A DNA stretch of 64,000 bases from Shigella phage Silverhawkium. Below are positions 34,570 through 41,357 of the stretch, one piece after another (position 1 is the first letter of the stretch; each line of letters begins with the position of its first letter). Under the pieces are notes generated by a model. That model was given only the letters and a program-made list of their open reading frames with translations. It ran no database searches and was not told the DNA's origin. The translations under genes were made by a program, and so were the position numbers. The DNA is taken from the sequence record MK562505, one strand, 5' to 3'.

Positions 34570-34724
34570 GGAGAAACCACAATGTATGCCAGAGACATAC
34601 TGTATAAGTCTTCTTATAAAGTATAACTCTATAAAAAAGCCCTGTCTAAAAATACTCTCCGGTAGCGAAAGGGAGAATACTCATAGCAGGGCATATAATA
34701 ACTTTGAGAGAGATATTATTAAAT

Positions 34725-34800
34725 TGGAGTATCGGAAGGGACTCGAACCCTCATAAACCTGTTTTGCAGACAGGAACATATCCATTTCTGTCACCGATAC
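34725..34800 (-). tRNA. tRNA-Cys (anticodon GCA)
   Basis: Manual fold: 7-bp acceptor GTATCGG/CCGATAC, anticodon loop CTGCAAA, T-loop TTCGAGT, CCA encoded. Confidence 0.65.
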
Positions 34801-34806
34801 ATAATT

Positions 34807-34899
34807 TGGAGGAAGATACCAGACTTGAACTGGTACGCCGATTTCTCGGTTACTGGCAGTTTAGCAAACTGCTCCCTTACCTGTTAGGGTTAATCTTCC
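34807..34899 (-). tRNA. tRNA-Ser (anticodon GCT), long variable arm
   Basis: Acceptor GGAAGAT/ATCTTCC, anticodon loop TTGCTAA, long variable arm, T-loop TTCAAGT. Confidence 0.65.
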
Positions 34900-34901
34900 A
34901 G

Positions 34902-35699
34902 TTATTTGTTAAGTGCATCTTTCATTTCTGGTGTAGAGATAGAGTCAATAACACCAGTCTTACAAGCATCATCAAACCAGTCTGGTAAGACATTTGCAAG
35001 AAAACCGTTAATGTTTGTCTTAAGATACTCAGCCATCAATGCTACTTCATCAGCAATCATCTGTGTGACTTCTGAAGCGTATGCAGTAATCTTTGACATA
35101 CCTTCATTAATCGCTGTAACAGCTTGTGAGGCTAAATCTTCGATTGTATCAAGCCCTTGGTCAATTGCATCTTGTAAGTCGCTTAGAACGCCGTTTACAG
35201 CGTCTATGGAGGTGTTTATAATCTCCATAGCTTTGTTACCATACTCAGTAGCAACTCCCATAATCCCACTGAATGGCGTACAACCAACTTGTTCACCTGC
35301 TGCTCCCATTACATTAGAGTAGCCTTTTGCCACCTGCATTCGTTGAGAGAACTCATCTACAGATTTCTGACCATACTCAGTCAGTGTAGTGGTTGTTGAA
35401 GTTGTACTGCCAAGACTTGTTGTGAAGCTACTTAAGAGTGCTGCTGTTAATCCAGCCGCAATAAGCTTATCTTGCACAGTCGGGTCTGTTACGGAACTAA
35501 TAGAGTTTACTAATGACTGAGAGGCAGCAATTGTACCACCAAGGACTGCTGCACCAGTAATAAGAGGGTTTGAGAAACCATTACCAGTTTTAAGGAGATT
35601 AAAAATCTCTTTACTTTGTTCTGTCATCTCTTTCATTATGCACCTATAAAGTTGGTAGCCCATCGGGATTTGAACCCTGTTCTCATGTTTTTCAGACAA
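34902..35699 (-). CDS. hypothetical Ala/Ser/Thr-rich protein embedded in tRNA island (265 aa)
   Basis: Long ORF between tRNA genes; low-complexity A/S/T-rich N-terminal half. Confidence 0.4.
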   Translation of the reverse strand: MSEKHENRVQIPMGYQLYRCIMKEMTEQSKEIFNLLKTGNGFSNPLITGAAVLGGTIAASQSLVNSISSVTDPTVQDKLIAAGLTAALLSSFTTSLGSTTSTTTTLTEYGQKSVDEFSQRMQVAKGYSNVMGAAGEQVGCTPFSGIMGVATEYGNKAMEIINTSIDAVNGVLSDLQDAIDQGLDTIEDLASQAVTAINEGMSKITAYASEVTQMIADEVALMAEYLKTNINGFLANVLPDWFDDACKTGVIDSISTPEMKDALNK

Positions 35700-35729
35700 G
35701 CGCTTTAACCATATAAGCTAATTGAGCTA
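35655..35729 (-). tRNA. probable tRNA, isotype uncertain (possibly Phe, anticodon GAA)
   Basis: T-loop TTCAAAT with 3-bp GGG/CCC stem, D-loop ATATGGTTA, loop CTGAAAA; acceptor register ambiguous. Confidence 0.35.
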
Positions 35730-35735
35730 TTAAAT

Positions 35736-35812
35736 TGGGGTGACCTACGGGAATCGAACCCGTATAGACCATGTTCACAGCATGGGTCATTATCCATTTA
35801 TGATAAGGCCAC
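35736..35812 (-). tRNA. tRNA-His (anticodon GTG)
   Basis: Acceptor GTGGCCT/AGGTCAC, anticodon loop CTGTGAA, T-arm ACGGG-TTCGATT-CCCGT, CCA encoded. Confidence 0.7.
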
Positions 35813-35843
35813 ATTTAAGGACTCTCGTAAGAACCCTTAGAAG

Positions 35844-35919
35844 TGGCAGCAGTATAAGGATTTGAACCTTAATCTTTCAGCTTCAGAGGCTGGAGCATTG
35901 CCAGTTATGCTATACTGCT
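35844..35919 (-). tRNA. tRNA-Gln (anticodon CTG)
   Basis: Acceptor AGCAGTA/TACTGCT, D-arm GCAT/ATGC, anticodon loop CTCTGAA. Confidence 0.65.
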
Positions 35920-35925
35920 AATATT

Positions 35926-36004
35926 TGGTACTCCATATCGGATTCGAACCGATACATAACACAGATTTTAAATCTGGCCTCTCTGCCAATTGGAGTAATG
36001 GAGC
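35926..36004 (-). tRNA. tRNA with Leu-type anticodon TAA but short variable arm
   Basis: Acceptor pairs, A14/G18G19/A21 D-loop, anticodon stem CAGA/TCTG with loop TTTAAAA, T-arm ATCGG-TTCGAAT-CCGAT, A73. Confidence 0.5.
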
Positions 36005-36006
36005 CT

Positions 36007-36082
36007 TGGCGGGGGATGATGGAATTGAACCATCTTCTTCGATTTCAAAGACCGAGGTTTTAACCTTGTAAACTAATCCCCT
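36007..36082 (-). tRNA. tRNA-Gln (anticodon TTG)
   Basis: D-arm GTTT/AAAC, anticodon loop CTTTGAA, T-arm GATGG-TTCAATT-CCATC; A1-C72 mismatch. Confidence 0.65.
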
Positions 36083-36090
36083 ATTAAATT

Positions 36091-36167
36091 TGGTGCAGAA
36101 TAGAGGATTCGAACCCCTAACAAACAACTTCGTAGATTGCTGTTCTATCCATTTGAACTAATTCTGC
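36091..36167 (-). tRNA. tRNA-Arg (anticodon ACG)
   Basis: Acceptor GCAGAAT/ATTCTGC perfect, D-arm GTTC/GAAC, anticodon loop CTACGAA. Confidence 0.7.
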
Positions 36168-36168
36168 A

Positions 36169-36411
36169 TTATCCGATAAGGACACCATAAAGTTTTAACT
36201 CTTCATTAGTGTCTCTTCTGCTTAAGACTGACTCTCTAAAATCTTTAGCAATATTCTTTCGAGATTCCTGTCTAGCTCTCTTCTTATCTCTTCTGAGAAA
36301 GCGTTTACGATGGTCTGTACGCCATTTGTAATAATCTTCTTCACCATCATGTGCTGCACAGCAGCCACAACTTGCAATTTCAACTTTACCGTGTCTACCA
36401 TAAGGTTTCAT
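36169..36411 (-). CDS. small basic Cys-cluster protein (80 aa) embedded in tRNA island
   Basis: ORF with SCGCCAAHD cysteine cluster and Arg/Lys-rich C-terminus; abuts tRNA-Arg. Confidence 0.35.
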   Translation of the reverse strand: MKPYGRHGKVEIASCGCCAAHDGEEDYYKWRTDHRKRFLRRDKKRARQESRKNIAKDFRESVLSRRDTNEELKLYGVLIG

Positions 36412-36427
36412 AGGAATCTCCTAAAAT

Positions 36428-36505
36428 TGGTACTCCAAGACGGATTCGAACCGTCACTAATACAAGGTTTGAGCTTGCATCCTCTACCAATTGGGATACT
36501 GGAGC
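36428..36505 (-). tRNA. tRNA with Leu-type anticodon CAA but short variable arm
   Basis: Anticodon stem GCAAG/CTTGT with loop CTCAAAC, T-arm GACGG-TTCGAAT-CCGTC, A73, CCA encoded. Confidence 0.5.
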
Positions 36506-36506
36506 A

Positions 36507-36581
36507 TGGTACTCGCTGAAGAACTTGAATCTTCTTCACCAACTTGTAAGGATGGGGTTTTACCGTATAAACTAAGCGAGC
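36507..36581 (-). tRNA. tRNA-Val (anticodon TAC)
   Basis: Acceptor GCTCGCT/AGCGAGT, D-arm GTTT/AAAC, loop CTTACAA, T-arm GAAGA-TTCAAGT-TCTTC. Confidence 0.6.
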
Positions 36582-36676
36582 TTTGAAGAGGTCTGAAGCT
36601 GTGCCGCTAACTCAACTCCGTGGAATTTGTTACGGTCTTCAGTTGACTCAAGCGGTCTTTCACTTGACCTCAAAAT

Positions 36677-36752
36677 TGGTGCTCCCACAAGGATTCGAAC
36701 CCTGATAAGTTGCTTACAAGGCAACCGTAATAGCCAATTATACGATAAGAGC
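36677..36752 (-). tRNA. tRNA-Thr (anticodon TGT)
   Basis: Anticodon arm GTTGC-CTTGTAA-GCAAC perfect; T-loop TTCGAAT. Confidence 0.7.
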
Positions 36753-36758
36753 ATTATT

Positions 36759-36833
36759 TGGAGCATCCAGAGGGAATCGAACCCTCAACCTCAGTTTGGA
36801 AGACTGTAATTTTCCCGTTTAAACTATGGATGC
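36759..36833 (-). tRNA. tRNA-Gly (anticodon TCC)
   Basis: Acceptor GCATCCA/TGGATGC perfect, loop CTTCCAA, T-arm GAGGG-TTCGATT-CCCTC. Confidence 0.7.
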
Positions 36834-36839
36834 ACTAAT

Positions 36840-36914
36840 TGGTGGAGTCACCGAGAATTGAACTCGGTTCCCAAGTTTGCAAAACTCGAATTTTAACCAT
36901 ATAAACTATGACCC
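36840..36914 (-). tRNA. tRNA-Ala (anticodon TGC)
   Basis: G3-U70 wobble pair in acceptor stem (Ala identity element), loop TTTGCAA, T-arm CCGAG-TTCAATT-CTCGG. Confidence 0.7.
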
Positions 36915-36921
36915 CATTGTT

Positions 36922-36997
36922 TGGTACAGGTGGAGGGAATTGAACCCATCGTCTTACTGATTAAGAGTCAGCCGCATAACCATTTTGCTACACCTGC
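36922..36997 (-). tRNA. tRNA-Lys (anticodon CTT)
   Basis: Acceptor GCAGGTG/CACCTGT, loop CTCTTAA; T-stem only 3 GC pairs. Confidence 0.55.
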
Positions 36998-37004
36998 ATT
37001 AATT

Positions 37005-37081
37005 TGGTACACCTAGAGAGATTCGAACTCACACTGAGCAGATTCTAAGTCTGCTGCCTCTTCCAATTGGGCTATAGGTGC
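37005..37081 (-). tRNA. tRNA with Leu-type anticodon TAG but short variable arm
   Basis: Anticodon arm GCAGA-CTTAGAA-TCTGC perfect, 5-nt variable loop, T-loop TTCGAAT, A73. Confidence 0.5.
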
Positions 37082-37331
37082 ATTAAATCTTTGTAGAGAA
37101 CTGCTAAGACGCCAAAGCAACAATGGTATCAAATGCCTTAACAATTCTCTAAAAAGACCTATTGGCCTTTGCATAGTCTTGCTTAATCCGGTGACTAGAA
37201 CCTTTGGAGAGCTTGATACTATCTCTTCTCCGTGACACCTACTAGGTGCTTTCTCAACATCGTGTACGCCAATACACGGAGGGAAACCTAACGCAACATT
37301 CGAACGGAGCGCGGCTTTAAATCTTATTAGG

Positions 37332-37419
37332 CGGTAAGTAAAGGAGTCGAACCCTCACCGTATCTCTACAGTGGCAACTGTTTTCAAGACAGTTTGGCTA
37401 CCATTAGCCGCTACCTACC
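37332..37419 (-). tRNA. tRNA-Ser (anticodon TGA), long variable arm, CCA not encoded
   Basis: Anticodon arm ACTGT-CTTGAAA-ACAGT perfect, about 20-nt variable arm, T-loop TTCGACT. Confidence 0.65.
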
Positions 37420-37432
37420 CCTAATAAGACTT

Positions 37433-37515
37433 TGGCATGGGACGTAGGATTCGAACCCATTTGAAACGGTTTTGGAGGCCGTCGCACATGCCTTAGTGTC
37501 TTAACATCGTCCCAT
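37433..37515 (-). tRNA. probable tRNA-Trp (anticodon CCA) with atypical extra nucleotides 5' of the D-arm
   Basis: Perfect 7-bp acceptor ATGGGAC/GTCCCAT, anticodon loop CTCCAAA, T-loop TTCGAAT; 83 nt. Confidence 0.4.
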
Positions 37516-37680
37516 ACTATATTTCGAAGCTTACCCTGTTATCTCAACACTGTCAAGCTTCTTCTCAGATTATTTACATGTTCTGGAAAACATGAGATAC
37601 AGACCACCTCCTTATGAGATTGACTCTTTCAAGTCAATGCGGAGACCCATAAAGGTCGTCGTAGTAATCTGCTAACTATT

Positions 37681-37756
37681 TGGCACTCCGTATAGGACTC
37701 GAACCTATATATGAACTGTTTAGAAGACAGTTGCCTATCCTTTAGACTAACGGAGC
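37681..37756 (-). tRNA. tRNA-Arg (anticodon TCT)
   Basis: Anticodon arm ACTGT-CTTCTAA-ACAGT perfect; T-arm ATAGG-TTCGAGT-CCTAT perfect. Confidence 0.7.
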
Positions 37757-38003
37757 ATTATCTTTAAAGGCTCTCTTAGAAAACCCTTAAAGATGCCCAC
37801 TTTATTAATCATACCGTGGGCTAGTACGCCAAATTCTTTAACAGGGAGTTGGAATACCCTGCTGGTGTTTAGCCTATTAAGCTACTGCCAGAAAAACATT
37901 ATCGTTTGCATTTATTTTTAAGTTTTTAAAATAGACGCTACGCTAACGAAAACTAAGGTTATCTTAAAGTGGTCACATCTGAATGTCAACAACTTTATGA
38001 AAT

Positions 38004-38078
38004 TGGTTGTAGGTGAGGGTATCGAACCCTCTTCTAACGGTTATCAGCCGTTTGCATTACCATTTATGCTAACCCACA
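38004..38078 (-). tRNA. tRNA-Ile (anticodon GAT)
   Basis: D-arm GCAT/ATGC, anticodon arm AACGG-CTGATAA-CCGTT, T-arm GAGGG-TTCGATA-CCCTC. Confidence 0.7.
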
Positions 38079-38080
38079 AT

Positions 38081-38157
38081 TGGAGGTTCAGGTGGGAATC
38101 GAACCCACATTCATAGGGCTTATGAAACCCTTGCATTACCTTATCTGCGACTGAACC
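38081..38157 (-). tRNA. tRNA-Met (anticodon CAT)
   Basis: Acceptor GGTTCAG/CTGAACC perfect, loop TTCATAA with G-C-rich anticodon stem. Confidence 0.65.
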
Positions 38158-38161
38158 ATAT

Positions 38162-38237
38162 TGGTAGAAGTGGAGGGATTCGAACCCGTCGCCTGTCAGA
38201 TTAAAAGTCTGCCGCATCACCATTCTGCTACACTTCC
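38162..38237 (-). tRNA. tRNA-Lys (anticodon TTT)
   Basis: Loop CTTTTAA, T-loop TTCGAAT with 3-bp GGG/CCC stem as in tRNA-Lys(CTT). Confidence 0.6.
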
Positions 38238-38424
38238 ATTAAATCATCTTTGCAGTAACCTACGCAAACCTTGCTAAAGGGTTTGTAGAGTCATCTCTTA
38301 GTAAGCTAATCTAGAATCATGCTCAAGAGACTCTTCGGCACTCATGGGACGACTGGTTAGCTCCATAAGTCACTGCAAAGGTGATTACCAGACCGTTGTT
38401 ATCTTAAGTGCTTCCATTACACCA

Positions 38425-38525
38425 ACACGCCGTAACGTGTGAAGGAATCGAACCTTCGCCTTTTCTTTACCAGAGAAATAGATTGTTTAACTTGCTGTAA
38501 ACGGTCTTCTGTAAATTGTTGGAAC
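38425..38525 (-). ncRNA. orphan tRNA-like element (T-arm only) of unknown function
   Basis: Perfect T-arm GAAGG-TTCGATT-CCTTC at 38441-38457 but no matching acceptor, D or anticodon arms; overlaps repeated 24-nt motif. Confidence 0.3.
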
Positions 38526-38659
38526 CAGACCAAGTTTTAAATTTTTCAAAATTAAATTGGCTTGAAATTTTAAGTGACTTGCTGTATTTGGTCTTCTGCT
38601 CCTTTAAAGAATACTCGCAAGAACTCTTTAAGGGAGGGGCTAAATAGCCCTCTCAAAAT

Positions 38660-38736
38660 TGGCGGCTACGATGAGACTTGAACTCACATCATCTCCCGTG
38701 ACAGGGGAGTATTTTCTCCAGTTAAACTACATAGCC
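38660..38736 (-). tRNA. tRNA-Asp (anticodon GTC)
   Basis: Anticodon arm CTCCC-CTGTCAC-GGGAG perfect; T-loop TTCAAGT. Confidence 0.7.
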
Positions 38737-38741
38737 TTTAT

Positions 38742-38829
38742 TGGTGTGCCGTGTAGGAGTCGAACCTACCGAGTCTCAATGACAAGGGATTTACAGTCCC
38801 CACCGCTACCATCTACGGGATAACGACAC
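38742..38829 (-). tRNA. tRNA-Tyr (anticodon GTA), long variable arm
   Basis: 3-bp D-stem, loop CTGTAAA, long variable arm, T-arm GTAGG-TTCGACT-CCTAC. Confidence 0.65.
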
Positions 38830-38838
38830 ATTTAAATT

Positions 38839-38915
38839 TGGCGGTTAGTCAGGGATTCGAACCCTGTACCATTCGGTTAACAGCCGACCGCACATGCCTT
38901 ATGTGCTTCCTAACC
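38839..38915 (-). tRNA. tRNA-Asn (anticodon GTT)
   Basis: D-arm GCAC-ATAAGGCAT-GTGC, loop CTGTTAA, T-arm CAGGG-TTCGAAT-CCCTG. Confidence 0.65.
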
Positions 38916-38998
38916 ATGTTAGTATTACCAGACCGTATCTTTTCATTTTTTCCGATAAAAAATTTTAAGTGTTTGCTGTAAACGGCCTTCTGTAAATT

Positions 38999-39074
38999 TG
39001 GAGGCGGGTGTAGGAGTCGAACCTACCGATACCATGCTAATGAGACATGTGAGACGCCCTTTCTCTATACCCGC
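38999..39074 (-). tRNA. tRNA-Met or Ile2 (anticodon CAT), second copy, with 1:72 mismatch
   Basis: Anticodon arm CATGT-CTCATTA-GCATG; T1-C72 mismatch reminiscent of initiator-type acceptor end. Confidence 0.5.
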
Positions 39075-39162
39075 AATTCTTAATGACCAGACCAAATCTT
39101 TTTTGGATTTCTATGCGCGAAATTGAAAAGTTTGTTTGCTGTAATTGGTCTTCTGTCAAAAC

Positions 39163-39240
39163 TGGCATTCCCGAAGGGACTTGAACCCTCAAACCACACC
39201 TTGAAAGGGTGTTGACTTTACCTAATTTGTCTACGGGAAT
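39163..39240 (-). tRNA. tRNA-Glu (anticodon TTC)
   Basis: Acceptor ATTCCCG/CGGGAAT perfect, anticodon arm ACACC-CTTTCAA-GGTGT perfect. Confidence 0.7.
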
Positions 39241-39246
39241 ATAATT

Positions 39247-39326
39247 TGGTCTCCGTTGAAGGATTTGAACCTTCGACCCCTTGCTCCCAAAGCAAGTGCT
39301 GCTAAACCAAACTGAGCTAAACGGAG
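39247..39326 (-). tRNA. tRNA-Pro (anticodon TGG)
   Basis: Acceptor CTCCGTT/AACGGAG perfect, anticodon arm CTTGC-TTTGGGA-GCAAG, T-arm GAAGG-TTCAAAT-CCTTC. Confidence 0.7.
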
Positions 39327-39444
39327 ATAATCTTTTTAAACTCTATGAAACCACTATAACATTATTTTTTAGTGTTTGTCAAGAGGTTTTTTAAAACATT
39401 TTGAAAATCTTTTAGAAAAACTCTTTTTCGTTTCGATGTAGAAC

Positions 39445-39473
39445 ATCTTACAGGGTATCAACAACATTGTCAA
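39445..39473 (-). promoter_or_regulatory. sigma70-like promoter (TTGACA-17-TAAGAT) at head of tRNA island
   Basis: Read on minus strand; sits between vWA gene stop and first tRNA; spacer forms hairpin AGGGTAT...ATACCCT. Confidence 0.45.
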
Positions 39474-39491: not shown

Positions 39492-40976
39492 TTACCAATC
39501 GTAACGTTCAGACATAACAGCTTTAAGCATTACGCTAATTGGGTCAAACTTCTCACCACCAAGTAGTGCTTTTAAGGTGGCTGGAGAGAAGCCAGATACC
39601 ATAGCTACTCCGTTATCCTTTACAGATACTTCGCAGTTTCCACCACGATTAGCTAGATACCAGAAAACTAACTGAGGCATCTCATAACCAGACTCTTTAT
39701 ACTTACGACGAATTTCTTCGAAGTTAGTATTACCTCGCTGACCATCAACCTGATTGAACTGCATATCAGAGAATATAATAAGCTTACTTGGCATTGCTTC
39801 TTGAGTCAAGTTATTTTTAACACCAATCTCAAGGATTCGGTCAAAAGCTGCTTGAATGTTTGTTGAACCATACTCAACATTCTTCATAACTTGTCGAATA
39901 CGAGTCTCCAGAGAGCCACTCAGGGAGATAAAGTATGGTCTAGTAGAGTAAACCATTAACTCATCTTTGAAGCATCCTGTGTTGCGTTCTGCTACGTATA
40001 GGGCAAGTGATACACCAATATCTAAAGCAGTTACTGAGCCGTGTTTCTCCCAAGTCATAGAGTCAGATACATCAGCCATGCAAAGGATGTTTTCACCATC
40101 TCTCATCCAGTTTGGCAAAGCTTTCCATTGCTCATTAGCAACATCTGCTCGACCATACCGTACAGACTTCGTAATGTCATAAGGGTAGACAGCACCAGCA
40201 TTGATTTTCTCAGTACCTTCTGACAAAGCCTTTACATATTCTGCATAACGTTCTCCACCTTTTCTGGTGAAAAGCTTCTGGTAACGTGCAGCAGCAAGTG
40301 AAGGTAGTTTGCTATAGTCAATCTCACCAAATGAGTTTGCAGAGATTTTCTGCTCAACTGTATCTGATAGCACTGACAGCATCAGTCGGTACTCTTTCTG
40401 GCTTAGATTTGCAAACTTGCAAAAACGTTTTACAAAATCCATATGACGCTTTTTAACCCTTGGGAGCCACTTAGCAGCCAATGCTGAAGTATCTGGGTTA
40501 AGCAGACCTTGCTCAATATGCTTGAAAGCATCTGTCTCATAACGAGTACCCACAAAGATTTTGAAGTCATCAAAACGACCTAGTTCAGAAATCTTATCCA
40601 TAATACGGAGTACTTGGAACTCGTCAATCATATTTGTTCGGATTGCTTCGGTCATTACAGTCCTGAATGCCTTACGTTCGCCCATACCCTCTCGTGCATC
40701 TCGCATATGAAGGAGGATTCGAACCGCTACATCAACATCCTCTCGCAGAGCCTTGTAAAACAAGTTTGGTAGTGCCTCTGTAGAGTTGCGGCTAGAGCCA
40801 GCAGCCTTATAGAAATCTACCAGTGCAGACATTGAGGACAGGTGGTTTACAGCACCATTCTCAGTCAAACCAGCGTGTAAGTTCGCATGGTTAAATAATT
40901 CGCTCATAATATTCTCTCTTCTCTCATTGTTGTTGGTTAGACAGACTCTAGAGTAACCAATAAAGTCTGTCAACAC
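39492..40976 (-). CDS. von Willebrand factor A (vWA) domain protein, about 490 aa; Ro60/TROVE-like architecture is a hypothesis
   Basis: C-terminal MIDAS-type motif DVSDSM (DxSxS); long helical N-terminal region; function not assignable from sequence. Confidence 0.6.
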   Translation of the reverse strand: MLTDFIGYSRVCLTNNNERRENIMSELFNHANLHAGLTENGAVNHLSSMSALVDFYKAAGSSRNSTEALPNLFYKALREDVDVAVRILLHMRDAREGMGERKAFRTVMTEAIRTNMIDEFQVLRIMDKISELGRFDDFKIFVGTRYETDAFKHIEQGLLNPDTSALAAKWLPRVKKRHMDFVKRFCKFANLSQKEYRLMLSVLSDTVEQKISANSFGEIDYSKLPSLAAARYQKLFTRKGGERYAEYVKALSEGTEKINAGAVYPYDITKSVRYGRADVANEQWKALPNWMRDGENILCMADVSDSMTWEKHGSVTALDIGVSLALYVAERNTGCFKDELMVYSTRPYFISLSGSLETRIRQVMKNVEYGSTNIQAAFDRILEIGVKNNLTQEAMPSKLIIFSDMQFNQVDGQRGNTNFEEIRRKYKESGYEMPQLVFWYLANRGGNCEVSVKDNGVAMVSGFSPATLKALLGGEKFDPISVMLKAVMSERYDW

Positions 40977-40985
40977 ATTTTTAAA

Positions 40986-41357
40986 TTATTTCTTCAGGGT
41001 TGCTACAGCAGAGAACGTTGGTTTGTTGTCTTGTGGTTTTTCTCCACCCTTATCACCAACCTTCTTAGAGTCTTCTGCAATGGCTTTCATCTCACCTGCT
41101 GAGTGAGTCATGATGACTTTCCCAGCTTCCATCATAGATTTTAGCTGAACATCATTTGGTGCAAGACCAAACTCTGCAAGCTTAACAGGGTCTCTGGTAA
41201 CAACTGCCTCAAATAACTTTGCAGCAAACTCTGCTGAGTTGTCAATAGTTAATTGAGCTTTTACAAGAGAGCTTTTGTTACGTGAACCTTTTGGTCTCCC
41301 AGAAGGGTTACCGGATTGACCTTTTTTAAACTGGCCTTTGTTTGTTCTTTTGGTCAT
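40986..41357 (-). CDS. hypothetical basic protein (123 aa)
   Basis: N-terminal Lys/Arg-rich segment with GNPSGRPKG motif. Confidence 0.4.
   Translation of the reverse strand: MTKRTNKGQFKKGQSGNPSGRPKGSRNKSSLVKAQLTIDNSAEFAAKLFEAVVTRDPVKLAEFGLAPNDVQLKSMMEAGKVIMTHSAGEMKAIAEDSKKVGDKGGEKPQDNKPTFSAVATLKK

What the first reader, a model, noticed from the sequence alone, without database searches (positions are those of the whole stretch)
34725..39326. Dense island of about 27 tRNA genes with anticodons for up to all 20 amino acids
All tRNAs are on the minus strand, many only 2-8 nt apart, and most encode CCA. Anticodons read by hand cover 17 amino acids confidently, plus candidates for Phe, Trp and Leu. 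Gln, Arg, Ser, Lys and Met are each represented twice, and the Ala tRNA carries the G3-U70 identity pair. Two protein ORFs (34902..35699 and 36169..36411) are embedded between tRNAs.
Basis: partly seen in the sequence, partly recalled or inferred. Interest (0 to 1): 0.45.

Follow-up and report, generated by a model that had tools for sequence, protein, structure and literature searches.

The report
tRNA island with Ro60-like RNA partners
The reported cluster of about 27 phage tRNA genes is real but already known in this phage group; the new point is that its spacers hold four copies of an apparently undescribed small RNA family that always travels with a Ro60-like protein gene next door, much like the Y RNAs of the Ro60 RNA-surveillance particle.

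Summary
ARAGORN finds 26 tRNA genes at 34725..39326, all on the minus strand, for 19 amino acids. A 27th gene is a conserved but non-canonical tRNA-Trp(CCA)-like gene at 37433..37515. The window is a Mooglevirus/Felixounavirus-type phage (Ounavirinae). Shigella phage Sf17 is annotated with the same 26 tRNAs in the same order, so the island itself is already known.

Two further things are in the island.
1. The gene just upstream (39492..40907) is a DUF2828/DUF7788 protein. Its predicted fold matches only Ro60/TROVE proteins at full length.
2. Four spacer RNAs (38385..39158) share one "handle": a 7-bp covarying stem starting AG, three bases, CAGCAA, a variable interior, the complementary strand ending CU, then G. 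One of them carries a YrlA-type tRNA-like domain.

A model of this handle finds 82 matches in 76 viral loci and 29 in 80 bacterial or archaeal loci that encode DUF2828 homologs. All lie on the gene's strand and most lie beside the gene. A related phage without the protein has none. Rfam has no family for it. The only weak matches are YrlA and Dictyostelium Class I RNA.

The most likely reading is a tRNA supply island combined with a Ro60-like/Y-RNA-like particle. RNA-protein binding is inferred, not shown.

The parts
39492..40907 (-). Ro60-like protein gene (471 aa; Pfam DUF2828 + DUF7788; PHROG 850 'RNA-binding protein'), directly upstream of the island
   Evidence: Pfam and PHROG matches. 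AlphaFold model with pLDDT 86.7. The top six Foldseek PDB hits are all Ro60/TROVE at full length, E 1.5e-7 to 1e-5. The residues that fit a MIDAS metal-site motif (D279, S281, S283, T349, D381) are invariant in 40 homologs. The Bas63 ortholog gp130 is reported as Ro60-like and as a counter to the Ppl defence.
39445..39473 (-). sigma-70-like promoter TTGACA-17-TAAGAT upstream of tRNA-Pro
   Evidence: Consensus scan, 10 of 12 matches. Promoter-like sites are not enriched overall in the region.
39353..39382 (-). sigma-70-like promoter TTGACA-18-TATAGT with TG, upstream of tRNA-Pro
   Evidence: Consensus scan, 11 of 12 matches.
39247..39326 (-). tRNA-Pro (UGG)
39163..39240 (-). tRNA-Glu (UUC)
39084..39158 (-). 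CAGCAA-handle RNA A (short class): outer stem UGAC/GUCA, AGA bulge, stem AGACCAA/UUGGUCU, UUACAGCAA, bulged G
   Evidence: Motif statistics, fold, strict scan, model R1 45.4 bits.
38999..39075 (-). tRNA (CAU) with a U1.C72 mismatch (initiator-like acceptor end), atypical D region
   Evidence: ARAGORN. Sequence. No Rfam match at E<=1. The ortholog is annotated tRNA-Met by tRNAscan-SE in Sf17.
38925..38995 (-). CAGCAA-handle RNA B (short class): stem AGGCCGU/ACGGUCU
   Evidence: R1 48.3 bits
38839..38915 (-). tRNA-Asn (GUU)
38742..38829 (-). tRNA-Tyr (GUA)
38660..38736 (-). tRNA-Asp (GUC)
38521..38602 (-). CAGCAA-handle RNA C (short class): stem AGACCAA/UUGGUCU
   Evidence: R1 43.4 bits; Rfam Dicty_Class_I_RNA 15.5 bits
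38385..38514 (-). CAGCAA-handle RNA D (long class). The interior holds a V-like hairpin, a T arm (GAAGG-UUCGAUU-CCUUC), a closed acceptor-like hairpin and a D arm (GUGU-AAUGGAA-GCAC). This is the YrlA-type layout.
   Evidence: The Rfam tRNA model matches the interior at 35.5 bits, 38433..38496. Consensus fold of 6 orthologs: 32 pairs, 14 with compensatory changes. The layout matches that described by Chen et al. 2014.
38238..38384 (-). structured spacer closed by a 12-bp long-range stem, shared only with Sf17; function unknown
38162..38237 (-). tRNA-Lys (UUU)
38081..38157 (-). tRNA (CAU) with GGG/CCC in the anticodon stem; Met or Ile2 not resolved
38004..38078 (-). tRNA-Ile (GAU)
37757..38003 (-). 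conserved structured spacer with its own promoter (37989..37961); function unknown
   Evidence: Promoter scan. 89-99% identity in relatives, with a hairpin that keeps pairing through three double changes. Weak Rfam tmRNA_permuted match, 34.7 bits, below threshold.
37681..37756 (-). tRNA-Arg (UCU)
37433..37515 (-). non-canonical tRNA-Trp-like gene. Anticodon CCA at 37473..37475, 8-bp acceptor plus 4-bp T stem, long connector before a 3-bp D stem, C31.A39 mismatch, G73 and encoded CCA. Preceded by TTGACA (37556..37551), 17 nt, TAAGCT (37533..37528).
   Evidence: Not called by ARAGORN or Rfam. Present in 235 phage records and never annotated as a tRNA in the 40 records listed. Consensus cloverleaf with 9 of 20 pairs compensatory.
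37330..37419 (-). tRNA-Ser (UGA), the only tRNA without encoded CCA
37082..37329 (-). conserved structured spacer; function unknown
   Evidence: 80-91% identity in relatives, long predicted helices.
37005..37081 (-). tRNA-Leu (UAG)
36922..36997 (-). tRNA-Lys (CUU)
36840..36915 (-). tRNA-Ala (UGC) with G3:U70
36759..36833 (-). tRNA-Gly (UCC)
36677..36752 (-). tRNA-Thr (UGU)
36582..36676 (-). 95-nt strongly folding hairpin spacer; function unknown
   Evidence: MFE z-score -3.6. 96-100% identical in five relatives.
36507..36581 (-). tRNA-Val (UAC)
36428..36505 (-). tRNA-Leu (CAA)
36169..36411 (-). 80-aa ORF embedded in the island (PHROG 10765, unknown function)
36091..36167 (-). tRNA-Arg (ACG)
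36007..36082 (-). tRNA-Gln (UUG)
35926..36004 (-). tRNA-Leu (UAA)
35844..35919 (-). tRNA-Gln (CUG)
35736..35812 (-). tRNA-His (GUG)
35653..35728 (-). tRNA-Phe (GAA)
34902..35636 (-). 244-aa ORF embedded in the island (Pfam DUF7217, PHROG 2114; annotated as a predicted membrane protein in Sf17)
34807..34899 (-). tRNA-Ser (GCU)
34725..34800 (-). tRNA-Cys (GCA), last gene of the island
34633..34692 (-). terminator-like element after the island: GCCCUG ... CAGGGC followed by U6
   Evidence: Read from the sequence. Not flagged by the scan because the loop is longer than its limit.

Best explanation
The region is a phage 'RNA island' with two layers.

Layer 1 (shown). It is an almost complete tRNA set: 26 canonical tRNAs plus one non-canonical tRNA-Trp-like gene. 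The genes are co-oriented, lie behind sigma-70-type promoters and are followed by a terminator-like element. Such a set would come from polycistronic precursors, but transcription and processing were not tested. The set is rich in U34 anticodons that match the A/U-ending codons this 39%-GC phage uses much more than its 51%-GC enterobacterial hosts.

Inferred from established work on phage tRNAs: the set keeps late phage translation going when host tRNAs are poorly matched, depleted or cleaved by anticodon nucleases.

Layer 2 (anatomy and linkage shown, binding inferred). The gene immediately upstream encodes a Ro60-like ring-plus-vWA protein of the DUF2828/DUF7788 family. Four spacer RNAs (A-D, 38385..39158) belong to a widespread RNA family with a constant handle: a 7-bp stem starting AG, three bases, CAGCAA, a variable interior, the complementary strand ending CU, then G. 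The interior varies. Three copies have short A/U-rich loops and one has a YrlA-type tRNA-like domain.

By analogy with Ro60 and its Y RNAs, I propose four steps, all inferred:
1. The handle is the binding site for the DUF2828 protein.
2. The variable module recruits or mimics something else, such as tRNA-handling enzymes, an exoribonuclease or a host tRNA-directed defence factor.
3. RNAs A and B are released by the same RNase P and 3'-end processing that matures the flanking tRNAs. They lie only 4-9 nt from those tRNAs.
4. The particle works in RNA surveillance or counter-defence during infection.
For: tRNA layer.
- ARAGORN finds 26 genes and Rfam supports 23 of them.
- Sf17 is annotated with the same 26 tRNAs in the same order.
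- 356 phage records match the region. Felixounaviruses are reported to carry 17-23 tRNAs.
- Codon usage: GC3 is 0.32 in the phage and 0.56 in E. coli. Shares within each amino acid, phage vs E. coli: AGA 0.40 vs 0.03, CCA 0.55 vs 0.19, ACA 0.39 vs 0.16, UCA 0.27 vs 0.10, GUA 0.33 vs 0.14, CUA 0.11 vs 0.04. Each of these codons has a cognate phage tRNA.
- The Trp-like gene keeps U33, CCA, A37, G73 and the encoded CCA, with 9 compensatory pairs.

Protein.
- The top six PDB fold matches are all Ro60/TROVE, at full length.
- The residues that fit a MIDAS motif are invariant.
- Homologs in mycobacteriophages are annotated 'Ro-like RNA binding protein' and are also DUF2828/DUF7788 proteins.
- Bas63 gp130 is reported as Ro60-like and counters the Ppl defence system.

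RNA family.
- The window holds four copies of GAAGRCCNNWWACAGCAA, each paired with GGUCUGGU; 0.24 are expected by chance.
- A strict pattern scan gives 106 hits on the gene's strand, 1 on the opposite strand and 0-1 in shuffles.
- Covariance model R1 finds 82 hits at E<=0.01 in 76 viral loci, all on the gene's strand. These include loci not used to build the model and loci without any tRNA.
- R1 finds 29 hits in 80 independent bacterial or archaeal loci, all on the gene's strand and mostly within 300 nt upstream of the gene.
- In the 64-kb window R1 hits only the four elements.
- Pectobacterium phage Wc4-1 keeps the syntenic tRNA island but has neither the protein nor any R1 hit.
- Long members contain YrlA-like domains, with Rfam YrlA scores of 21.7-38 bits.
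- Element D folds as V, T, acceptor-like and D arms, with 14 compensatory pairs.
- The same gene-next-to-RNA arrangement is experimentally established for canonical Ro60, for example phiLo Ro60 with Yrl1 and Yrl2 (Chen 2014).
Against: - I have no expression, processing or binding data for the window's RNAs or protein.
- The protein does not match Pfam TROVE by sequence and has no sequence hit in the PDB. Its similarity to Ro60 rests on a predicted fold, with TM about 0.55.
- The handle lacks the canonical Ro-binding motifs (GGUCCGA, GNCGAA). Rfam YrlA scores are far below the gathering score of 69, and YrlA does not match element D at all.
- The covariation table for the handle is circular, because the sequences were selected for pairing. 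The real support comes from the strand, shuffle and held-out-locus controls.
- The elements could act in cis on the DUF2828 mRNA. In bacteria most lie just upstream of the gene.
- The only experimental phenotype, Ppl counter-defence in Bas63, has not been tied to any RNA.
- Codon compensation and nuclease evasion cannot be separated with these data. Under strict wobble rules the phage set reads 75% of phage codons and 78% of E. coli codons, so overall coverage does not discriminate.
Confidence: 0.7

Rival explanations
1. It is only a tRNA island. The CAGCAA hairpins are passive or cis-acting spacer signals, such as RNase processing sites, attenuators or terminators, or transcript-stabilising hairpins for the polycistronic tRNA precursor. 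They have no protein partner of their own.
For: They sit between tRNAs and 4-9 nt from them. The three short copies have only A/U-rich loops and unremarkable folding energies, z -1.0 to -2.0. No expression data exist.
Against: The same handle occurs next to DUF2828 genes in loci with no tRNA at all, for example L016, L017, L019, L027, L030, L038 and L040. It also occurs upstream of bacterial DUF2828 genes. The related phage Wc4-1 has the same kind of tRNA island but no such hairpins and no DUF2828 gene. The handle closes elaborate tRNA-like modules in many loci.
Confidence: 0.12
2. The handle is a cis-regulatory operator on the DUF2828 mRNA. It is an autoregulatory protein-binding site in the 5' or 3' UTR, not a set of independent trans-acting RNAs.
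For: In bacterial loci most hits lie within 300 nt upstream of the gene on the same strand. In many viral loci one copy lies directly after the stop codon.
Against: In the window the four copies are separated from the gene by two promoters and by two to six tRNAs. Genomes carry up to five copies, with different elaborate interiors including tRNA-like domains. This fits modular RNAs better than an operator. Canonical Ro60 genes show the same adjacency with their trans-acting Y RNAs.
Confidence: 0.1
3. The elements are decayed tRNA genes or a small mobile repeat that spread within tRNA arrays.
For: Element D and other long members contain tRNA-derived arms. The Rfam tRNA model scores D at 35.5 bits. 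Phage tRNA arrays do accumulate pseudo-tRNAs and homing-endonuclease insertions.
Against: The handle sequence and geometry are conserved from Enterobacteria phages to mycobacteriophages, Clostridia and Chloroflexi, while the stem covaries freely. The strand is always that of the DUF2828 gene: 111 of 111 model hits at E<=0.01 in the two locus sets. There are no terminal repeats or target duplications. The short class has no tRNA-like part.
Confidence: 0.03
4. The Trp-like gene (37433..37515) is not a decoding tRNA. It is a relic, or a tRNA-like RNA with another role such as a decoy or primer, so the island supplies 19 amino acids, not 20.
For: ARAGORN and Rfam do not call it. It has an 11-nt connector before a 3-bp D stem, an 8+4 acceptor/T stack and a C31.A39 mismatch. 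It is not annotated as a tRNA in any of the 40 listed records. Its folding energy is not better than shuffles.
Against: It is conserved across Ounavirinae, including phage Wc4-1 and the contig L007 whose DUF2828 protein is only 48% identical. It shows compensatory changes in the acceptor, anticodon, D and T stems. U33, CCA, A37, G73 and the encoded CCA are invariant, and it has its own promoter-like site. G73 plus the CCA anticodon are the main E. coli TrpRS identity elements (my own knowledge).
Confidence: 0.4

Closest known systems
tRNA gene clusters of Ounavirinae (Felix O1, Felixounavirus, Mooglevirus such as Shigella phage Sf17 and Citrobacter phage Michonne)
   Same: The same 26 tRNAs in the same order as annotated in Sf17. 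About 90-92% DNA identity over 6 kb. The same flanking terminase and DUF2828 genes. Embedded small ORFs, and homing-endonuclease insertions in some relatives.
   Different: Nothing essential. The window is a new isolate or variant, at most 92% identical to deposited genomes over this stretch. The Trp-like gene and the spacer RNAs are present in the relatives too but are not annotated there.
Ro60 with Y RNAs: bacterial Rsr with YrlA/YrlB, and Thermus phage phiLo Ro60 with Yrl1/Yrl2
   Same: A ring-plus-vWA protein fold. The RNAs are encoded next to the protein gene on the same strand. The RNA ends pair into a stem next to a short conserved motif, and the interior is modular. One RNA per genome often carries a tRNA-like domain ordered V, T, acceptor-like hairpin, D, alongside shorter partners without it, as with YrlA and YrlB.
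   Different: The protein belongs to a different sequence family (Pfam DUF2828/DUF7788, no TROVE match). The conserved motif is (U/A)NCAGCAA after a stem starting AG and closing with CU-G, not GNCGAA or GGUCCGA. Rfam YrlA scores are sub-threshold. Here the RNAs are interleaved with genuine tRNA genes. Binding is untested.
Dictyostelium Class I RNAs (Rfam RF01414)
   Same: About 60 nt and many copies per genome. A 6-7-bp covarying terminal stem whose 5' G pairs with the C of a conserved 3' CUG(U). The motif (CC)UUACAGCAA follows the 5' strand directly, and its C6, C9, A10 and A11 positions are invariant in both sets. The rest is variable. All eight sub-threshold RF01414 matches I saw (15.5-30.8 bits) fall exactly on CAGCAA-handle elements.
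   Different: Scores are below Rfam's gathering score of 41.5. The spacing from the G to CAGCAA is one base shorter. The Dictyostelium genes have their own upstream DUSE promoter element, and the first bioRxiv version attributed them to RNA polymerase III. Class I RNAs are reported as unique to Dictyostelia, with the RRM protein Rnp1A as the direct binder. Common descent is unproven and the motif is short.
Escherichia phage Bas63 gp130 (PhageMaP preprint, PMC11482910)
   Same: It lies directly upstream of the tRNA block in a Felixounavirus, so I take it to be the ortholog of the window's DUF2828 gene; the orthology was not computed. The authors noted its structural similarity to Ro60 and suggested that partner Y RNAs might hide among the annotated tRNAs.
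   Different: They named no RNA. The candidates found here are not the annotated tRNAs but unannotated spacer elements with a defined handle.
Large tRNA sets of T4-, T5- and other lytic phages (codon-compensation and anti-nuclease models)
   Same: A dense co-oriented tRNA array in a lytic phage that is more AT-rich than its host. The anticodons are biased toward phage-preferred codons. Some tRNAs, such as Tyr, are about 85% identical to those of T4-like phages.
   Different: A larger and nearly complete set. It is physically combined with a Ro60-like module.

Membership tests
Phage tRNA gene cluster (Ounavirinae type) | Genes recognised as tRNAs by independent predictors | tested here: met
   ARAGORN. 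The Rfam tRNA model scores 23 of them above its gathering score. tRNAscan-SE annotations of all 26 orthologs exist in Sf17.
Phage tRNA gene cluster (Ounavirinae type) | Synteny and sequence identity with annotated clusters of the subfamily | tested here: met
   Same order as Sf17. 226 phage records cover at least 80% of the 6-kb query at 80-92% identity.
Phage tRNA gene cluster (Ounavirinae type) | tRNAs are expressed, processed and aminoacylated | not testable with these tools
   Only indirect evidence: encoded CCA in 25 of 26, G3:U70 in Ala, and promoter-like sites.
Ro60 / TROVE protein family | Sequence match to the TROVE domain (Pfam PF05731) or to Ro60 proteins | tested here: not met
   Pfam reports only DUF2828 and DUF7788. 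There is no PDB sequence hit to Ro60, even at E<=10.
Ro60 / TROVE protein family | Helical-repeat ring followed by a vWA domain with a MIDAS motif | tested here: met
   This rests on a predicted structure. The top six Foldseek PDB hits are all Ro60/TROVE at full length, probability 1.00, TM up to 0.56. The residues that fit a MIDAS motif (D279, S281, S283, T349, D381) are invariant.
Ro60 / TROVE protein family | Binds Y RNAs or misfolded RNAs | not testable with these tools
   Inferred only from the genomic linkage with the CAGCAA-handle RNAs.
Y RNA / YrlA (Rfam RF02553) | Encoded next to the Ro60(-like) gene on the same strand | tested here: met
   The window's four copies lie 330-1100 nt downstream of the gene. 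All 111 model hits at E<=0.01 in the two locus sets are on the gene's strand.
Y RNA / YrlA (Rfam RF02553) | 5' and 3' ends pair into a stem that closes a variable interior | tested here: met
   The 7-bp stem has five freely covarying positions (selected set). Support that is not circular comes from the strand and shuffle controls and from loci not used to build the model.
Y RNA / YrlA (Rfam RF02553) | Conserved Ro-binding motif GNCGAA(N)G (bacteria) or GGUCCGA (animals) | tested here: not met
   The motif is N(U/A)NCAGCAA in all 106 strict hits. The canonical motifs are described.
Y RNA / YrlA (Rfam RF02553) | tRNA-like domain with T arm, closed acceptor-like stem and D arm | tested here: met
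   Met for element D only: consensus fold with 14 compensatory pairs. RNAs A-C lack the domain, as YrlB does.
Y RNA / YrlA (Rfam RF02553) | Score at or above the Rfam gathering score (69 bits) | tested here: not met
   There is no YrlA match to element D at E<=10. Related long elements score 21.7-38 bits.
Dictyostelium Class I RNA (Rfam RF01414) | Terminal stem whose 5' G pairs with the C of a conserved 3' CUGU | tested here: met
   The handle is (A)G...stem...C(U)G, often followed by U. The Class I feature is described.
Dictyostelium Class I RNA (Rfam RF01414) | 11-nt motif CCUUACAGCAA next to the 5' stem strand (invariant U3, C6, C9, A10, A11) | tested here: inconclusive
   CAGCAA is invariant, covering C6, C9, A10 and A11. 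UUACAGCAA is identical in three of the window's four copies. However, position 3 varies and the spacing is one base shorter.
Dictyostelium Class I RNA (Rfam RF01414) | Score at or above the Rfam gathering score (41.5 bits) | tested here: not met
   Scores are 15.5-30.8 bits. All eight matches fall exactly on CAGCAA-handle elements.
Dictyostelium Class I RNA (Rfam RF01414) | DUSE promoter and occurrence in Dictyostelia | tested here: not met
   These are phage and bacterial sequences. No eukaryotic genome collection was available to test the reverse direction.
tRNA-Trp | Cloverleaf recognised by tRNA predictors | tested here: not met
   37433..37515 is not called by ARAGORN or by Rfam.
tRNA-Trp | CCA anticodon in a U33...A37 loop, G73 discriminator, CCA end, conserved paired arms | tested here: met
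   Alignment of six orthologs: 20 pairs, 9 with compensatory changes; the loop, G73 and CCA are invariant.

The most novel reading that the evidence does not exclude
The CAGCAA-handle RNAs of phages and bacteria and the Class I RNAs of Dictyostelium may be one RNA family whose conserved protein partner is the Ro60-like DUF2828 protein. Class I RNAs have been abundant, developmentally regulated, of unknown mechanism since 2004, and described as unique to dictyostelids. DUF2828 proteins also occur in plants and other eukaryotes, according to papers that mention the domain and my own knowledge of Pfam.

If this is true, DUF2828 proteins with these RNAs would form a second, widespread Ro60/Y-RNA-like particle spanning viruses, bacteria and eukaryotes.

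[quoted passage not shown] It would be the obvious candidate partner.
Probability: 0.3. Interest if true: 0.85.

Novelty: new variant of a known kind. Interest (0 to 1): 0.66.

Why it matters
The tRNA island by itself is routine: it is annotated in dozens of Felix O1-like and Moogle-like phages.

What matters is the module woven into it.
- It gives concrete, testable RNA partners for a large protein family. I counted 709 phage records and at least 452 hits in bacterial and archaeal genomes. The family is currently labelled only 'DUF2828', 'RNA-binding protein' or 'Ro-like'.
- One member, Bas63 gp130, was recently reported to counter the Ppl anti-phage system without any known mechanism.
- It extends the Ro60/Y-RNA principle (a constant protein-binding handle plus an exchangeable effector module, often a tRNA mimic) to a second sequence family with a different recognition motif.
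- It shows that phage 'tRNA arrays' can hide non-tRNA RNAs and non-canonical tRNAs that standard annotation skips.
- If the resemblance to Dictyostelium Class I RNAs reflects homology, it would point to a protein partner, and so to a mechanism, for a 20-year-old orphan RNA class.

Tried and rejected
1. I first read the repeated GAAGACC...GGUCUGG hairpins as canonical Ro-binding bulged helices. The bulge orientation and the motif differ from GGUCCGA and GNCGAA, and Rfam YrlA does not match element D. I therefore do not file them as YrlA.

2. It has a mismatched acceptor and a truncated D arm. It is better explained as the interior of element D, with the arms in permuted order (T arm, closed acceptor-like stem, D arm).

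3. I considered a permuted or two-piece tmRNA at 37823..38064. The Rfam matches of 34.7 and 20.3 bits are below threshold and the stronger one (37877..38064) overlaps tRNA-Ile. ARAGORN reports no tmRNA. I did not pursue it.

4. I looked for extra CAGCAA-handle copies elsewhere in the window and in spacer 36582..36676, which contains GAAGACCGUAACAAA. Model R1 with filters off finds none.

5. I tried to test the Dictyostelium link directly and could not:
   - the Avesson 2011, Aspegren 2004 and Sim 2020 papers are not held;
   - the supplements hold scores but no Class I sequences;
   - no paper in the library connects Dictyostelium Class I RNAs with Ro60 or Y RNAs.

6. The promoter and terminator scan shows no overall enrichment (12 found vs 9.9 expected). 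Only the individually strong, well-placed sites are cited.

7. I did not resolve which CAU tRNA is initiator, elongator Met or lysidine-Ile. I also did not compare anticodon loops with host tRNAs for signs of nuclease evasion.

Full report
**1. Checking the observation**

ARAGORN finds 26 tRNA genes in the 64-kb window. All lie between 34725 and 39326 and all are on the minus strand. They carry anticodons for 19 amino acids. Trp is missing. Gln, Arg, Ser, Lys and the CAU anticodon occur twice, and Leu three times.

Rfam's tRNA model scores 23 of them above its gathering score. The long-arm Ser-UGA and Tyr genes match the related tRNA-Sec model below threshold. tRNA(CAU) 38999..39075 gives no Rfam match at E<=1, but tRNAscan-SE annotates its ortholog in a relative.

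Reading the genes directly:
- 15 of the 25 gaps between neighbours are 1-9 nt.
- 25 of 26 genes encode CCA. Ser-UGA ends GCC.
- tRNA-Ala has G3:U70.

The two embedded ORFs exist. The first is a DUF7217 protein. Its homolog-supported start is ATG 35636 (244 aa). The TTG at 35699 overlaps tRNA-Phe.

**2. Source of the window, and whether the island is known**

The 6-kb region matches 356 phage records, and 226 of them match over at least 80% of its length. The best matches reach about 92% identity. They are Escherichia, Shigella and Citrobacter phages of the Ounavirinae: Mooglevirus (Sf13-Sf18, Michonne, Mordin) and Felixounavirus.

The RefSeq record of Shigella phage Sf17 is annotated with the same 26 tRNAs in the same order. 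They lie between the same terminase-side ORF and the same upstream gene. Comparative papers report 17-23 tRNAs in Felixounavirus genomes. The tRNA island is therefore an already known feature of this phage group.

**3. The 27th tRNA**

The 261-nt spacer between tRNA-Arg(UCU) and tRNA-Ser(UGA) contains an 83-nt gene at 37433..37515, on the minus strand. Both programs miss it.

It folds into a cloverleaf with unusual proportions:
- an 8-bp acceptor stem plus a 4-bp T stem, which stack to 12 bp as in a normal 7+5 tRNA;
- an 11-nt connector before a 3-bp D stem;
- a 5-bp anticodon stem closed by a C31.A39 mismatch;
- the loop C-U-CCA-A-A, then G73 and an encoded CCA.

In an alignment of six orthologs, 9 of 20 pairs keep pairing through changes on both sides. 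The orthologs include Pectobacterium phage Wc4-1 and a viral contig (L007) whose DUF2828 protein is only 48% identical. Three of the compensated pairs are in the anticodon stem between the window and Sf17.

The gene occurs in 235 phage records. None of the 40 records listed annotates it as a tRNA. A TTGACA-17-TAAGCT site lies just upstream.

G73 and the CCA anticodon are the main identity elements for E. coli TrpRS (my own knowledge). I therefore consider a functional but non-canonical tRNA-Trp somewhat more likely than a relic. It cannot be decided here.

**4. Why the tRNAs are there**

The window has 39% GC and a GC3 of 0.32. A 50-kb sample of E. coli K-12 genes has 51% GC and a GC3 of 0.56.

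| Codon | Share within its amino acid, phage | Share, E. coli |
|---|---|---|
| AGA | 0.40 | 0.03 |
| CCA | 0.55 | 0.19 |
| ACA | 0.39 | 0.16 |
| GCA | 0.41 | 0.23 |
| UCA | 0.27 | 0.10 |
| GUA | 0.33 | 0.14 |
| CUA | 0.11 | 0.04 |
| UUA | 0.24 | 0.13 |
| AAG | 0.45 | 0.23 |

Each of these phage-preferred codons has a cognate phage tRNA (UCU, UGG, UGU, UGC, UGA, UAC, UAG, UAA, CUU). This fits the classical codon-compensation model.

It does not exclude the more recent ideas that phage tRNAs replace host tRNAs that are degraded or cut by anticodon nucleases. The literature for these ideas is cited. Total coverage under strict wobble rules is similar for phage genes (75%) and host genes (78%), so overall coverage does not discriminate between the models.

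**5. The upstream gene is Ro60-like**

ORF 39492..40907 (471 aa) matches Pfam DUF2828 and DUF7788 and PHROG 850 'RNA-binding protein'. It has no sequence hit in the PDB.

An AlphaFold model built from 40 homologs is confident: pLDDT 86.7, pTM 0.88. Its six best Foldseek matches in the PDB are all Ro60/TROVE proteins aligned at full length. They are Thermus phage phiLo Ro60, human Ro60 and Deinococcus Rsr, with E from 1.5e-7 to 1e-5. After them come only isolated vWA domains. The residues that fit a MIDAS metal-site motif are invariant.

This similarity has been noticed before:
- Homologs in mycobacteriophages are annotated 'Ro-like RNA binding protein'. I confirmed that one of them, Winky gp55, is a DUF2828/DUF7788 protein.
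- A 2024 preprint reports that Bas63 gp130 resembles Ro60 and counters the Ppl defence system. gp130 lies in the same position directly upstream of the tRNA block, so I take it to be the ortholog, although I did not compute the orthology. The authors speculated that 'some tRNA genes are possibly Y RNAs'.

**6. The spacer RNAs**

Four spacers downstream of the gene carry GAAGRCCNNWWACAGCAA, each followed 60-120 nt later by GGUCUGGU. By chance 0.24 and 1.1 copies are expected.

Each pair folds into the same arrangement:
- an outer 4-5-bp stem;
- a 3-nt bulge;
- a 7-bp stem (AGACCNN/NNGGUCU);
- a bulged G.

Three elements (A, B, C) have short A/U-rich interiors. The fourth (D, 38385..38514) contains a hairpin, a perfect T arm, a closed acceptor-like hairpin and a D arm with the GG loop. 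This is exactly the V-T-AS-D order described for bacterial YrlA Y RNAs. Fourteen of its 32 pairs show compensatory changes among six orthologs.

**7. The handle defines a widespread family linked to the protein**

I collected 80 viral contigs that encode DUF2828 homologs, most of them 38-48% identical to the window protein.

A pattern scan asked for a 7-bp stem starting AG, a 2-4-nt linker, CAGCAA, the complementary strand ending CU, and then G. It gave 106 hits on the gene's strand in 51 of 82 sequences, 1 hit on the other strand and 0-1 hits in shuffles. The linker was 3 nt in 103 of the 106 hits. The inner five stem positions take all four Watson-Crick pairs. That table is circular by selection; the controls are the evidence.

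A covariance model (R1) built from 37 short members gave the following results:

| Search | Result |
|---|---|
| The 64-kb window, filters off | Only the four elements |
| 76 viral loci | 82 matches at E<=0.01, all on the gene's strand. They include loci not used to build the model and at least seven loci with no tRNA, where the element sits directly after the stop codon |
| 80 independent bacterial and archaeal loci (homologs 31-41% identical) | 29 matches in 22 loci, all on the gene's strand, mostly within 300 nt upstream of the gene |
| Mycobacteriophage Winky | Two of the three elements directly after the Ro-like gene (E<0.01). The middle, YrlA-like element matches only partially (E 0.36) and is the one matched by Rfam YrlA |
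| Pectobacterium phage Wc4-1, whole 92-kb genome | No DUF2828 homolog and no R1 match, although it keeps the syntenic tRNA island and the Trp-like gene |

The RNAs therefore travel with the protein, not with the tRNAs.

**8. Modularity**

Members fall into a short class (47-82 nt) and a long class (88-216 nt). The interiors of the long class differ between lineages:
- tRNA-like domains with the arms in YrlA order;
- tRNA-like domains in normal order;
- other conserved modules.

Rfam's YrlA model matches several long interiors at 21.7-38 bits, below its threshold of 69. A constant handle with an exchangeable module is the defining logic of Y RNAs. The same gene-next-to-RNA layout is experimentally established for canonical Ro60, for example phiLo Ro60 with Yrl1 and Yrl2.

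I therefore propose that the handle binds the DUF2828 protein and that the module engages a second partner. Because A and B lie 4-9 nt from flanking tRNAs, normal tRNA end-processing would release them. These steps are all inferences.

**9. Resemblance to Dictyostelium Class I RNAs**

Besides tRNA and YrlA, the only Rfam family that matches the elements is Dicty_Class_I_RNA. All eight sub-threshold matches I saw (15.5-30.8 bits, full model length) coincide exactly with CAGCAA-handle elements.

The published description of Class I RNAs fits the short class closely:
- about 60 nt and many copies per genome;
- a covarying terminal stem;
- a 5' G that pairs with the C of a 3' CUGU;
- an adjacent 11-nt motif whose invariant positions include C6, C9, A10 and A11;
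- a variable remainder.

The Rfam consensus prints this motif as CCUUACAGCAA.

The differences are:
- the spacing is one base shorter;
- scores are below the gathering score of 41.5;
- the Dictyostelium genes have their own upstream DUSE promoter element;
- the known direct binder is an RRM protein, Rnp1A.

[quoted passage not shown] I could not determine its family. I report the possible homology as the most novel reading not excluded, not as a finding.

**10. Other content of the island**

The remaining long spacers are 80-100% conserved among relatives and are predicted to be structured. They are 36582..36676, 37082..37329, 37528..37680 and 37757..38003. The last has its own promoter and a covarying hairpin. 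Spacer 38238..38384 is shared only with Sf17. Their functions are unknown.

**11. Verdict**

The tRNA island itself is ordinary and already annotated in relatives.

The added value is a Ro60-like protein with an apparently undescribed, well-supported partner RNA family embedded among the tRNAs. 'Apparently undescribed' means that it is absent from Rfam 15 and from the papers I could search. I rate this a new variant of a known kind (Ro60/Y-RNA-type particles). Confidence is high that the RNA family and its linkage to the gene are real. Confidence is moderate that the RNAs bind the protein. Confidence is low to moderate in the Dictyostelium connection.

Noticed in passing
window 37433..37515 (-): Conserved non-canonical tRNA-Trp(CCA)-like gene with an 8+4 acceptor/T stack, a long D connector and a promoter-like site of its own. 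It occurs in 235 phage records and is not annotated as a tRNA in any of the 40 records listed.
   Followed up: yes
window 37757..38003 (-): Conserved 247-nt spacer with a strong TTGACA-17-TAAGAT promoter (37989..37961). It contains a hairpin with a UUCCAA loop that keeps pairing through three double changes between the window and Felixounavirus contigs. Weak Rfam tmRNA_permuted (34.7 bits) and alpha_tmRNA matches are below threshold.
   Followed up: partly
window 36582..36676 (-): 95-nt hairpin between tRNA-Thr and tRNA-Val with an MFE z-score of -3.6. It is 96-100% identical in five relatives. It contains GAAGACCGUAACAAA, which looks like a decayed handle, but model R1 does not match it.
   Followed up: partly
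window 37082..37329, 37528..37680 and 38238..38384 (-): Three more conserved spacers predicted to be structured. The last is closed by a 12-bp long-range stem and is shared only with Sf17. No known RNA family matches them.
   Followed up: partly
window 38999..39075 and 38081..38157 (-): The two CAU-anticodon tRNAs are both unusual. One has a U1.C72 mismatch, an extra base before the D stem and no Rfam match. The other has GGG/CCC in the anticodon stem but a fully paired acceptor end. Both have U73. Which is initiator, elongator Met or lysidine-Ile was not resolved.
   Followed up: partly
window 37330..37419 (-): tRNA-Ser(UGA) is the only one of the 26 tRNAs that does not encode its CCA end (it ends GCC, then UAA).
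   Followed up: yes
window 34902..35699 (-): The mechanical ORF start (TTG 35699) overlaps tRNA-Phe by 47 nt. Homologs and the Sf17 annotation support ATG 35636 (DUF7217, 244 aa, annotated as a predicted membrane protein).
   Followed up: yes
loci L002-L041 (viral contigs with DUF2828 homologs): 26 of 40 loci have tRNA or tmRNA genes within 8 kb of the DUF2828 gene, often starting right after it. tmRNA genes lie near the gene in L021, L022, L023, L032, L034, L035, L057 and L079.
   Followed up: partly
L013 11244..11457 (+): Rfam archaeal RNase P RNA model matches at 46.6 bits (E 5e-10, below the gathering score of 84) inside a 161-kb viral contig. It lies among tRNAs and 1.8 kb downstream of the DUF2828 gene. 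It may be a phage-encoded RNase P-like RNA.
   Followed up: no
L164 3946..4208 (Mycobacterium phage Winky): Three CAGCAA-handle elements follow the 'Ro-like RNA binding protein' gene directly. Their handle is a variant, GGNNNN-UAA-CAGCAA...NNNNCC-AG. The middle element has a YrlA-like interior (Rfam 21.7 bits).
   Followed up: yes
supplementary file 7 of bioRxiv 10.1101/2020.04.05.026054: Outgroup candidates from the Dictyostelium Class I search that the authors dismissed include an Arabidopsis sequence (score 40, UGUUUUC-AUUACAGCAA...GAAAAC-UG) and a Capsaspora sequence. Both show the same handle. Plants are reported to encode DUF2828 proteins.
   Followed up: no
window 40986..41357 (-): The ORF upstream of the Ro60-like gene is a DUF5681 protein (PHROG 4114, unknown function), conserved in Sf17.
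   Followed up: no
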